Sequence record: PZ386959.1
From: a phage
Direction: 5' to 3' (one strand)
DNA: 64,000 bases
The notes under the pieces: model-generated
What the model saw: only the letters and a program-made list of their open reading frames with translations
Told to the model about the DNA's origin: nothing
Database searches by the model: none
In this document: positions 39,401-40,186 of the stretch, piece after piece
Layout: every line of letters starts with the position of its first letter
How positions within the stretch are numbered: the stretch's first letter is position 1
Made by a program: the position numbers and the translations under genes

Positions 39401-40186
39401 ATGGGTATTGTAAAAATCATCAATGGTGATATCTTTGCAGCATTTGATAAAGGTAAGTTTGATGTCATCGGTCACGGTTGCAACTGTATGAATTTAATGG
39501 GTGCAGGTATCGCTGACAAGATTTCTAAACTTTACCCAAAAGCATATGAGACCGATACAGAAGTTTATCTATATGCAGGTGGTATAGGACATAAACCCTG
39601 TGAGGATTTACTAGGTAATATCTCTGTAGCACGTTTAGAACAAGGCCGTATAGCTAACCTCTACACTCAGCTTAAAACTGGTAAAGATGCCAGATACAGT
39701 GCTTTAGAGTCATCTTTGAAGAAACTTAACAGGTACTGTGAAGTCAATCAGTTGAAGAAAGTTGGTTTACCTATGATTGGTGCAGGTATCGGTGGACTTG
39801 ACCCTCAAGCTGTCACCGTTATCATCAATCAGGTGATGAAGAGTGTAGATGTGTATCTATATGTCTATGAAGGAGAGATGTACCACAAGTTACGCTCAGG
39901 TTGGAAGAACTACTGTGAACCAGAATACTTTGCAGGTGTAGTTGTGTTCACGGATAATGCAGTTACCCTCTTCAGACGAAGAAAAGGTAAGATACATCAA
40001 AGTAACCCTCCGGTTGAGAAGATGTCTCTAAGTAACGCTCTAGTTACCCACCTGTCGAAGAGCAATCACAGAATTGCAGTAACATTTGGCAGTGATGCAG
40101 ATGCTTATGCCTATGCAAGAACTGATGAGGATATTGAGTTAATCTTCTCTTCACCAGAGCTTACCTTCTTAGACGCAAAGAACTAA
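39401..40186 (+). CDS. macro-domain-like protein (ADP-ribose binding/processing)
   Basis: 261 aa; N-terminal VIGHGCNCMNLMGAGIADKI resembles macro-domain N-x(6)-GGGV-like glycine loop; second GAGIGG later. Confidence 0.4.
   Translation: MGIVKIINGDIFAAFDKGKFDVIGHGCNCMNLMGAGIADKISKLYPKAYETDTEVYLYAGGIGHKPCEDLLGNISVARLEQGRIANLYTQLKTGKDARYSALESSLKKLNRYCEVNQLKKVGLPMIGAGIGGLDPQAVTVIINQVMKSVDVYLYVYEGEMYHKLRSGWKNYCEPEYFAGVVVFTDNAVTLFRRRKGKIHQSNPPVEKMSLSNALVTHLSKSNHRIAVTFGSDADAYAYARTDEDIELIFSSPELTFLDAKN

What the first reader, a model, noticed from the sequence alone, without database searches (positions are those of the whole stretch)
39401..40186. Macro-domain-like protein near the NAD+ module
The N-terminal VIGHGCNCMNLMGAGIADKI glycine loop resembles the ADP-ribose-binding loop of macro domains. 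A macro domain in the same region as a candidate NAD+/ADP-ribose reconstitution pair would suit removal or sensing of ADP-ribosyl marks or signalling nucleotides, a plausible counter-defence role.
Basis: partly seen in the sequence, partly recalled or inferred. Interest (0 to 1): 0.5.

Follow-up and report, generated by a model that had tools for sequence, protein, structure and literature searches.

The report
Phage macrodomain enzyme with orphan tail
This Felix O1-like phage gene really does encode an ADP-ribose-handling macrodomain enzyme, from a phage family recently shown to defeat bacterial NAD+/ADP-ribose-based immunity, and it carries an extra 100-residue domain that resembles nothing known.

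Summary
ORF 39401-40186 (+) encodes a 261-aa protein. Residues 1-156 are a genuine macrodomain: Pfam PF01661 scores above its gathering cut-off, and the AlphaFold model matches TARG1 and DarG at TM 0.82-0.85. The window is a Felixounavirus. The protein is 95% identical to bas63_0095 of phage Bas63, where the NAD+ reconstitution pathway NARP1 was discovered.

The macrodomain belongs to PHROG 335. So do T4 Tk.4 (AdfM, needed to resist DarTG2) and Vibrio-phage Adpp (ADPR-1''-phosphate phosphatase, which lets NARP1 overcome aRES). It keeps the catalytic Asn (N28) and both glycine loops. It has Gln where TARG1 and DarG have the catalytic Lys, as Tk.4 and Adpp also do.

NARP1 lies 7.5 kb upstream (29209-31918) and co-occurs with this gene throughout Ounavirinae.

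Residues 157-261 form a beta-rich domain restricted to this lineage, with no sequence or structural relatives.

Best reading: an active ADP-ribose hydrolase used for counter-defence. It most likely acts as an unlinked Adpp feeding NARP1 (about 0.4), or as an AdfM-like DNA de-ADP-ribosylase (about 0.35). It could do both. No assay exists for this protein. Modest interest.

The parts
39401..40186 (+). Complete ORF: 261-aa two-domain protein. It is the orthologue of bas63_0095 (QXV81786.1, 'putative phosphatase').
   Evidence: ORF listing and sequence. 95% identical to bas63_0095. PHROG_335 E 1.2e-111. 258 phage records carry the full-length protein.
39401..39868 (+). N-terminal macrodomain (residues 1-156), Tk.4/Adpp-type, in the Poa1p/TARG1/DarG-like branch.
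   Evidence: Pfam PF01661 31.8 bits. Foldseek hits to TARG1 4j5s and DarG 5m3e, TM 0.82-0.85. 34% identical to T4 Tk.4 over its whole length. 28% identical to the Adpp orthologue of Vibrio phage Quinn.
39464..39523 (+). Loop-1 element VIGHGCNCMNLMGAGIADKI (residues 22-41). H25, N28, C29, N31 and M33-G36 are invariant. N28 is equivalent to DarG N22 and PhiKZ AdfM N23.
   Evidence: Invariant columns in the 19-sequence alignment. Register with PhiKZ gp104 taken from the MGAG anchor. Active-site residues named in PMC13309987.
39656..39670 (+). NLYTQ motif (residues 86-90), invariant. Q90 occupies the position of the catalytic Lys of TARG1 (K84) and DarG (K80).
   Evidence: HMMER alignment to TARG1. 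Invariance in the family. The same motif is present in T4 Tk.4 and in Adpp proteins.
39770..39802 (+). Loop-2 element PMIGAGIGGLD (residues 124-134), the diphosphate-binding glycine loop. G131 sits where TARG1 has D125.
39869..40183 (+). C-terminal domain (residues 157-261): six or seven beta strands followed by a terminal helix. It is restricted to Ounavirinae-like macro proteins and has no known relatives.
40216..40257 (+). Terminator-like hairpin (17-bp stem followed by a T run) 30 nt after the stop codon, so the gene appears to close a transcription unit.
   Evidence: Consensus scan. This is a pattern match only.
29209..30090 (+). Adps (ADPR pyrophosphokinase, PRPP-synthetase-like), the first NARP1 enzyme. 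Proposed downstream user of the ADPR released by the macrodomain (inferred link).
   Evidence: Pfam Pribosyltran and Pribosyl_synth. The N-terminus is nearly identical to Bas63 Adps.
30137..31918 (+). Namat (nicotinamide ADPR-transferase, Nampt-like), the second NARP1 enzyme.
   Evidence: Pfam NAPRTase and NAMPT_N. The N-terminus differs by 1 of 65 residues from Bas63 Namat.

Best explanation
The gene encodes an enzymatically active macrodomain hydrolase that the phage uses against host immunity built on NAD+ and ADP-ribose.

The most likely specific job is the Adpp reaction. When a host RES-type NADase (aRES) splits NAD+ into nicotinamide and ADP-ribose-1''-phosphate, the macrodomain removes the 1''-phosphate. 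The phage's own NARP1 enzymes (Adps 29209-30090, Namat 30137-31918) can then turn the resulting ADP-ribose plus nicotinamide back into NAD+. Felix O1-like phages would thus carry a 'split' version of the three-gene NARP1-AP pathway, with the phosphatase 7.5 kb away from the other two genes.

The same active site may also strip ADP-ribose from other 1''-linked substrates (see the first rival).

The C-terminal 105 residues are a non-catalytic add-on, with no conserved polar residues. They presumably tether or target the enzyme, but their partner is unknown.

Shown here: the ORF, the macro fold, the family membership, the conserved active-site residues, and the presence and orthology of NARP1. 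Inferred: enzymatic activity, the substrate, the link to NARP1, and the role of the C-terminal domain.
For: - Family: the protein shares PHROG_335 with the Adpp orthologue of Vibrio phage Quinn, which sits in an Adps-macro-Namat operon. It is 28% identical to it over the whole domain. Gary Adpp was shown by LC-MS to convert ADPR-1''P to ADPR and to be required for NARP1 to beat aRES.
- Motifs: it shares H-x-C-N-C...MG-x-G-x-A, N-[LV]-Y-[TG]-Q and P-x-I-G-x-G with the NARP1-associated macro proteins of that paper's Table S1. It shares HxCNC with yeast Poa1p, the reference ADPR-1''P phosphatase; the profile hit to 6LFU has E 6e-5.
- Active site: it lacks the Lys/Asp dyad used by TARG1 and the Lys used by DarG for glycosidic cleavage (Q90, G131). 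It keeps the Asn typical of phosphatase-competent macrodomains.
- NARP1 in the same genome: the pair is orthologous to the validated Bas63 genes 79-80.
- Co-occurrence: NARP1 and the two-domain macro protein occur together in every Ounavirinae-like genome examined, down to 33% protein identity. In the phage collection, 258 records hold Namat at 60% identity or more, and 258 hold the full-length macro protein.
- A gap in the published survey: the aRES study scanned only two genes on either side of NARP1, and its table lists no Escherichia or Salmonella phages. This protein would have been missed.
- Relevant hosts: aRES occurs in E. coli, Klebsiella and Enterobacter.
- A related fusion: a macro relative with the same GIGGLDP loop (P0025) is fused to cREC_REC, a domain predicted to process ADPR cyclic phosphate.
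Against: - No biochemical or genetic data exist for this protein or any Ounavirinae orthologue.
- The gene is 15 genes and 7.5 kb from NARP1, behind rIIA/rIIB and the spanins, and seems to end its own transcription unit. The co-occurrence may therefore only reflect a shared core genome.
- It is somewhat closer to T4 Tk.4 (34%, 80 bits) than to Adpp (28%, 56 bits). The loop after the TQ motif has the short Tk.4 length rather than the longer Y-x-[YW]-containing Adpp loop.
- The neighbour-joining tree does not resolve the deep branches, and NARP1-linked macro proteins are polyphyletic in it.
- In PADLOC and NCBIfam the only match is the DarG macrodomain.
- The C-terminal domain is unexplained by this model.
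Confidence: 0.4

Rival explanations
1. AdfM-like anti-DarTG2 factor. The macrodomain removes the ADP-ribose that the host toxin DarT2 places on thymidine in single-stranded phage DNA, restoring replication. The C-terminal domain could play the part of DarG's second, toxin-binding domain. This is not exclusive with the best explanation; I put the chance that both activities matter at about 0.2.
For: - The closest characterised homologue is T4 Tk.4: 34% identity across its whole 155 residues, pairwise E 1e-23. Its knockout sensitises T4 to DarTG2.
- The only PADLOC and NCBIfam matches are to the DarG macrodomain (E 3e-13 and 1.9e-12). These are stronger than the matches of T4 Tk.4 itself.
- DarG structures are among the top fold matches.
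- The DarG active-site Asn is conserved, as N28.
- The architecture of a macrodomain plus a second domain mirrors DarG2.
- A DarG2-like phage macrodomain, PhiKZ gp104, has been shown biochemically to clean DarT2-modified DNA.
Against: - The catalytic Lys of DarG (K80), PhiKZ AdfM (K78) and TARG1 (K84) is replaced by an invariant Gln.
- PhiKZ AdfM is only a remote relative (blastp E 0.002).
- Activity of T4 Tk.4 on DNA is inferred from genetics, not shown biochemically.
- Its net charge is not consistently basic, as a DNA-binding module might be.
Confidence: 0.35
2. Housekeeping clean-up enzyme. It would be a Poa1p-like phosphatase or deacetylase that removes ADPR-1''-phosphate, ADPR cyclic-phosphate breakdown products or O-acetyl-ADPR. 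These could arise from RNA repair, or from spontaneous decay of the NARP1 intermediate ADPR-PP, with no particular defence system as the target.
For: - GenBank records annotate it as 'phosphatase' by similarity to Poa1p/A1pp.
- Macro genes of this family often lie near RNA-repair genes: a PNK-like gene in this window and in ValKK3, and Rnl2 in RSP15, PVP-SE1 and Quinn.
- ADPR-PP was reported to decay to ADPR cyclic phosphate in Bas63-infected cells.
- A Macro-cREC fusion exists among its relatives.
Against: - No Tpt1/KptA-type enzyme that would generate ADPR cyclic phosphate from RNA repair was seen near the gene. The C-terminal domain is not homologous to cREC.
- Both members of the family that have been tested genetically have defence-specific phenotypes.
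Confidence: 0.1
3. Non-catalytic binder. The macrodomain would only bind or sequester an ADP-ribose-derived immune signal (for example Thoeris gcADPR or His-ADPR), or would sense ADP-ribosylation, with the C-terminal domain acting as an output.
For: Macrodomains can act as sensors: ThsA of type II Thoeris binds His-ADPR through a macro domain, and macroH2A-type binders are known.
Against: - The catalytic Asn, the His and both glycine loops are invariant from Felixounavirus to relatives at 33% identity. That is the pattern of an enzyme.
- Both characterised homologues act, or are inferred to act, catalytically.
- The C-terminal domain has no recognisable effector features.
Confidence: 0.05

Closest known systems
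T4 Tk.4 = AdfM (anti-DarT factor macrodomain; HIDEN-SEQ preprint 10.1101/2025.11.20.689424)
   Same: - Same PHROG (335).
- 34% identity over the whole macrodomain.
- Same HGCNC...MGxGxA, NLYTQ and PxIGAGIG motifs, including Gln in place of the DarG/TARG1 Lys.
- Same short loop after the TQ motif.
- Both are early genes of virulent enterobacterial myoviruses.
   Different: - Tk.4 is a single 155-aa domain; this protein adds a 105-residue C-terminal domain.
- T4 has no NARP1, whereas this phage does.
- Loop 2 reads GIGGLD here and GIGKGNWD in T4.
Adpp, the macrodomain ADPR-1''-phosphate phosphatase of NARP1-AP (Vibrio phage Gary KNV71_gp137; preprint 10.64898/2026.01.28.702374)
   Same: - Same PHROG and the same three motifs.
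- 28% identity to the Quinn orthologue.
- Encoded in a genome that also has Adps and Namat.
   Different: - Adpp sits inside the NARP1 operon (Adps-Adpp-Namat); this gene lies 15 genes downstream.
- Adpp proteins are single-domain (150-170 aa) and have a longer loop after the Q, containing Y-x-[YW].
- No activity has been measured for this protein.
DarG2 antitoxin and the DarG2-like phage AdfM (PhiKZ gp104; PMC13309987)
   Same: Macro fold, the conserved active-site Asn, matches to the DarG models over the macro part, and (for DarG2) a two-domain layout.
   Different: - The catalytic Lys is absent (Gln).
- Similarity to PhiKZ gp104 is very weak (E 0.002).
- The C-terminal domain is unrelated to DarG's toxin-binding domain.
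- There is no adjacent darT.
Human TARG1/OARD1 and yeast Poa1p
   Same: TARG1 gives the best solved-structure matches by sequence and fold. The HxCNC loop is shared with Poa1p.
   Different: - TARG1's K84 and D125 correspond to Q90 and G131 here.
- Only the first 60 residues or so align significantly with Poa1p.
- Both are cellular single-domain enzymes.

Membership tests
Macro domain superfamily (Pfam PF01661) | Profile match above the curated gathering score | tested here: met
   31.8 bits against a cut-off of 22, covering profile positions 2-117 of 118.
Macro domain superfamily (Pfam PF01661) | Three-layer alpha/beta/alpha macro fold | tested here: met
   AF2 model with pLDDT 85.5. Foldseek probability 1.0, TM 0.82-0.85 to TARG1 and DarG.
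Macro domain superfamily (Pfam PF01661) | Glycine-rich loops 1 and 2 lining the ADP-ribose cleft | tested here: met
   MGAGIA (residues 33-38) and IGAGIGG (residues 126-132) are invariant in 19 homologues.
Phage Tk.4/Adpp macro family (PHROG_335) | Full-length profile match and the shared motifs HxCNC, N[LV]Y[TG]Q and PxIGxG | tested here: met
   E 1.2e-111. T4 Tk.4 and Quinn Adpp hit the same PHROG. Motifs seen in the alignments.
Phage Tk.4/Adpp macro family (PHROG_335) | Single-domain protein of about 150-170 aa | tested here: not met
   The protein is 261 aa, with an extra C-terminal domain (residues 157-261) that is conserved across Ounavirinae.
NARP1-AP pathway (Adps + Adpp + Namat) | Adps and Namat encoded by the same phage | tested here: met
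   Located at 29209-31918. The Pfam domains and near-identity to Bas63 genes 79-80 support this.
NARP1-AP pathway (Adps + Adpp + Namat) | Macro gene inside the NARP1 operon (within two genes, as defined in the paper) | tested here: not met
   The gene is 7,482 nt and about 15 genes downstream, in this window and in all Ounavirinae contexts examined.
NARP1-AP pathway (Adps + Adpp + Namat) | Hydrolysis of ADPR-1''-phosphate to ADPR | not testable with these tools
   This needs LC-MS with purified protein, as was done for Gary Adpp.
DarG antitoxin / DarG2-like AdfM | Macrodomain related to that of DarG | tested here: met
   PADLOC DarG E 3e-13; NCBIfam antitoxin_DarG E 1.9e-12. Only the macro part matches: 47 bits against an equivalog cut-off of 250.
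DarG antitoxin / DarG2-like AdfM | Active-site Asn (Taq DarG N22, PhiKZ N23) | tested here: met
   N28 is invariant.
DarG antitoxin / DarG2-like AdfM | Catalytic Lys (Taq DarG K80, PhiKZ K78, TARG1 K84) | tested here: not met
   HMMER places the invariant Q90 opposite TARG1 K84. MAFFT shifts PhiKZ K78 by one column, opposite L91. There is no Lys at either position.
DarG antitoxin / DarG2-like AdfM | C-terminal DarT-binding domain, or an adjacent darT gene | tested here: not met
TARG1/OARD1 | Catalytic dyad K84 and D125 | tested here: not met
   Q90 and G131 occupy the aligned positions. The TARG1 residue numbering comes from my recollection of UniProt Q9Y530; it is consistent with K and D falling at positions 84 and 125.
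Poa1p (yeast ADPR-1''-phosphate phosphatase) | Sequence relationship over the whole domain | tested here: inconclusive
   The profile hit to 6LFU (E 6e-5) covers only residues 1-60. The HxCNC motif is shared.

The most novel reading that the evidence does not exclude
Felix O1-like phages, including Bas63 (the phage in which NARP1 was discovered), would carry a complete but physically split NARP1-AP. Its phosphatase would be a bifunctional macrodomain that both feeds NARP1 (anti-aRES) and cleans DarT2-modified DNA, using a Gln-based active site instead of the DarG/TARG1 lysine. Its orphan C-terminal domain would be a new fold that docks the enzyme onto a host immune protein, or onto Adps/Namat. 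That would roughly double the fraction of NARP1 phages equipped against RES-type NADases, and would define a new targeting module.
Probability: 0.12. Interest if true: 0.65.

Novelty: new variant of a known kind. Interest (0 to 1): 0.38.

Why it matters
Macrodomains are common in myoviruses: 41% encode one, according to PMC9503650. The domain itself is therefore ordinary, and public records already annotate it as 'macro domain-containing protein' or 'phosphatase'.

The value lies in three specific, testable points.

- The model phage for NARP1, Bas63, carries an uncharacterised member (bas63_0095) of the family that supplies the NARP1-AP phosphatase. The published survey could not have seen it, because it looked only two genes either side of NARP1. 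If it works as Adpp, Felixounaviruses are already armed against aRES. These phages make up about 258 of the 1,930 Namat/Nampt-bearing records in the phage collection, and include many therapeutic candidates against E. coli and Salmonella.
- One phage family (PHROG 335) now has two different reported counter-defence activities. This protein, which co-exists with NARP1 but looks slightly more like Tk.4, is a good case for asking whether the enzymes are bifunctional.
- The conserved C-terminal domain has no detectable relatives and may be a new targeting or inhibitor module.

Tried and rejected
- Homology of the C-terminal domain to the cREC_REC domain fused to a related macro protein (P0025): hhalign probability 0.15%, rejected.
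- The upstream Cys-rich 66-aa ORF as a conserved partner: it is conserved only in Felixounavirus and Mooglevirus and is replaced by unrelated ORFs in more distant relatives. Rejected.
- Net charge and pI of either domain as a clue to DNA binding: values are inconsistent across homologues, so uninformative.
- Phylogeny to decide between Adpp-like and Tk.4-like. The first Biopython run timed out. My own neighbour-joining tree with 300 bootstraps puts the Ounavirinae proteins in their own clade (63%), but the deep nodes have under 50% support and the NARP1-linked proteins are polyphyletic. It is not decisive.
- Search for an Ounavirinae lineage that has the macro protein but lacks NARP1, or the reverse: none found.
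- TARG1-type Lys/Asp mechanism: rejected, because both residues are absent.
- Prophage or host copies: no match in 5,426 complete E. coli genomes.
- Literature on the Felixounavirus macro protein: none found.

Full report
**1. What is there**

The window is a Felix O1-like myovirus. A 4-kb stretch around the finding matches 258 phage records, almost all Escherichia, Salmonella or Shigella Felixounavirus, at 92-96% nucleotide identity.

At 39401..40186 on the + strand lies an uninterrupted ATG-to-TAA ORF of 261 codons.

Public records annotate the gene as 'macro domain-containing protein', 'phosphatase' or 'hypothetical protein'. It is 95% identical to bas63_0095 (QXV81786.1, 'putative phosphatase') of phage Bas63/JohannRWettstein. 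No copy exists in 5,426 complete E. coli genomes, as expected for a virulent phage.

**2. The macrodomain is real**

- Pfam PF01661 scores 31.8 bits against a gathering score of 22 and covers nearly the whole model.
- A profile of 19 homologues hits solved TARG1 (E 3.6e-11), M. tuberculosis and T. aquaticus DarG (8e-9 and 3e-7) and yeast Poa1p (6e-5, N-terminal 60 residues only).
- The AlphaFold2 model (pLDDT 85.5, pTM 0.86) matches TARG1 and DarG macrodomains with Foldseek probability 1.0 and TM 0.82-0.85 normalised to the target.
A second glycine loop (PMIGAGIGGLD, residues 124-134) is also invariant.

**3. Two domains, not one**

The macrodomain ends near residue 156. Residues 157-261 fold, in both the full-length model and a separate model (pLDDT 76.9), into six or seven beta strands capped by a C-terminal helix.

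This domain has no detectable relatives:
- It has no Pfam match.
- In BFVD it matches only its own orthologue.
- A profile search of 1.84 billion representative proteins returns only macro-fused relatives, gene fragments and chance repeat proteins.

It is nevertheless conserved across Ounavirinae. Mooglevirus (Michonne), Kolesnikvirus (phiEa104) and metagenomic relatives down to 33% identity have proteins of 246-264 aa with this tail. Only P174, G179 and Y236 are (nearly) invariant. That pattern points to a structural or binding module rather than a second catalytic site.

**4. Which macrodomain family**

The whole protein matches PHROG_335 ('phosphatase') at E 1e-111. So do T4 Tk.4 and the macro protein encoded between Adps and Namat in Vibrio phage Quinn.

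Pairwise comparisons:

| Pair | Identity | Bits |
|---|---|---|
| This protein vs T4 Tk.4 | 34% | 80 |
| This protein vs Quinn Adpp | 28% | 56 |
| T4 Tk.4 vs Quinn Adpp | 34% | 70 |

All three share HxCNC...MGxGxA, N[LV]Y[TG]Q and PxIGxG. The NARP1-associated macro proteins in Table S1 of the aRES preprint share them too.

PhiKZ gp104, the biochemically characterised DarG2-like AdfM, is only a remote relative (E 0.002).

In PADLOC and NCBIfam the single match is to the macro half of DarG (47-48 bits against an equivalog cut-off of 250).

**5. Active site**

- N28 aligns with DarG N22 and PhiKZ N23, the residue whose mutation lowers AdfM activity.
- The catalytic Lys of TARG1 (K84), DarG (K80) and PhiKZ AdfM (K78) is not present. 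HMMER places the invariant Q90 opposite K84. MAFFT shifts PhiKZ by one column, opposite L91. Either way there is no Lys.
- TARG1's D125 aligns with G131.
- T4 Tk.4 and all Adpp proteins also have Gln at this position.

The chemistry is therefore of the Asn-dependent Poa1p/MacroD type rather than the TARG1/DarG Lys type. This is an inference from the alignment.

**6. What homologues are known to do (literature)**

- T4 tk.4 was the single significant hit of a transposon screen on a DarTG2 host. A clean knockout sensitised T4, and the gene was named adfM. The DNA de-ADP-ribosylation activity itself is inferred, not measured (10.1101/2025.11.20.689424).
- In some phages the NARP1 operon contains a Poa1p-like macro protein, Adpp. 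It converts ADPR-1''-phosphate, the product of the RES-domain defence aRES, into ADPR. NARP1 can then rebuild NAD+. This was shown by LC-MS and by genetics for Vibrio phage Gary (10.64898/2026.01.28.702374). That survey looked only two genes either side of NARP1, and its table contains no Escherichia or Salmonella phages.
- NARP1 itself was discovered in Bas63, genes 79-80 (10.1101/2024.02.11.579819).

**7. Context**

The window's Adps (29209-30090) and Namat (30137-31918) carry the expected Pfam domains. They are nearly identical at their N-termini to the Bas63 proteins.

The macro gene lies 7,482 nt downstream on the same strand. In between are rIIA, rIIB, an SLT-like gene, a HAD/PNK-like gene, the spanins and several small ORFs. 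A strong terminator-like hairpin follows it.

The same order and spacing hold in every Ounavirinae-like context I fetched, including phiEa104. In the phage collection, 258 records hold Namat at 60% identity or more, and 258 hold the full-length macro protein.

So the two always travel together. That could be functional coupling, or simply a shared core genome; I found no lineage that separates them.

**8. Can sequence decide between Adpp-like and AdfM-like?**

No.
- In a neighbour-joining tree (151 columns, 300 bootstraps) the Ounavirinae proteins form their own clade (63%). Deeper nodes have under 50% support.
- The NARP1-linked proteins are polyphyletic. For example, the Acinetobacter phiAbaA1 Adpp groups with the macro protein of a T4-like Acinetobacter phage at 70%.
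- The loop after the TQ motif has the Tk.4 length, not the Adpp length.
- Among the closer macro relatives, one (P0025, with the same GIGGLDP loop) is fused to cREC_REC. That domain is predicted, but not shown, to resolve ADPR cyclic phosphate. This is a hint that the branch handles soluble ADPR phosphates.

**9. Verdict on mechanism**

With high confidence (about 0.85) this is a catalytically active ADP-ribose-processing macrodomain used in the NAD+/ADP-ribose arms race.

| Specific reaction | Estimated probability |
|---|---|
| Unlinked Adpp supplying ADPR to NARP1 against RES-type NADases | about 0.40 |
| Tk.4/AdfM-like removal of DarT2 marks from DNA | about 0.35 |
| Housekeeping clean-up | about 0.10 |
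| Pure binding | about 0.05 |
| Something else | remainder |

A substantial part of the first two probabilities covers the case where both activities apply. Macrodomains commonly act on several 1''-linked substrates.

I rank Adpp first for three reasons: the validated NARP1 in the same genome, the Poa1p-like HxCNC motif, and the missing glycohydrolase Lys. The higher similarity to Tk.4 and the DarG-model hits keep the rival close.

The C-terminal domain is unexplained by either model. A DarG-like toxin-binding role is an attractive analogy but has no supporting evidence.

**10. Novelty and interest**

The family and both candidate functions are already published, and the gene is already annotated as a macro protein. 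The macrodomain part is a new member of a known kind.

Two things make it a variant worth a targeted experiment: the conserved orphan C-terminal domain, and the separation from NARP1 in the very phage lineage where NARP1 was found. Neither makes it a surprise to a specialist. Interest 0.38.

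Noticed in passing
window 40260-40450: The 520-nt gap after the macro gene holds three or four copies of a ~34-nt motif (...TCATTTTCAAAnnGTGCAG) spaced 39-45 nt apart, just downstream of the terminator-like hairpin. In Bas63 two small minus-strand ORFs are annotated in this gap. The function is unknown; a promoter or regulator-binding array is possible.
   Followed up: partly
window 41087-41168, 41467-41548, 42542-42623; also 40647-40692 and 42211-42256: An 82-nt intergenic cassette is repeated three times; the first and third copies are 99% identical. It contains a GC-rich hairpin (AAGGGGCTTA...TAAGCCCC) followed by a shared ribosome-binding region. A separate 46-nt hairpin is repeated twice. 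The small genes downstream of the macro gene therefore look like single-gene cassettes bounded by terminator/promoter modules.
   Followed up: partly
window 29209-31918: The Adps/Namat pair is the orthologue of Bas63 genes 79-80, the experimentally validated NARP1. The 'candidate NAD+ reconstitution pair' mentioned in the finding is therefore an already known system.
   Followed up: yes
window 39200-39400: A 66-aa Cys-rich ORF (CxxC...CxxCxC, zinc-ribbon-like) ends with a TAA directly abutting the macro ATG, which suggests translational coupling. It is conserved in Felixounavirus and Mooglevirus and is replaced by unrelated small ORFs in more distant relatives.
   Followed up: yes
P0025 (L019:1250-2269, metagenomic contig): A 339-aa protein fuses a macrodomain of this family (loop 2 reads GIGGLDPKQV, as here) to a cREC_REC domain (PF20274, predicted cyclic-phosphate processing). 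This would be a two-step ADPR cyclic-phosphate to ADPR enzyme on one chain.
   Followed up: partly
window 36150-37371: An SLT-like gene (weak Pfam hit) overlaps a 231-aa gene that records call 'polynucleotide kinase'. Homologues of the latter show only a weak HAD_PNKP (phosphatase-type) match and no kinase domain, so the annotation may overstate it.
   Followed up: no
L001 (MW481326.1) locus 12978-13304, 15862-16158, 17438-17641: In phage Pr103Blw, small early ORFs of 68-108 aa next to the macro gene are annotated 'tail assembly protein', 'tail sheath monomer' and 'prohead assembly scaffold protein'. Given their size and position, these are probably annotation errors.
   Followed up: no
Table S1 of 10.64898/2026.01.28.702374, compared with L016: The NARP1-linked Adpp of Acinetobacter phage phiAbaA1 groups (70% bootstrap) with the macro protein of a T4-like Acinetobacter phage, not with other Adpp proteins. 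This suggests that macro genes moved into or out of NARP1 operons repeatedly.
   Followed up: partly
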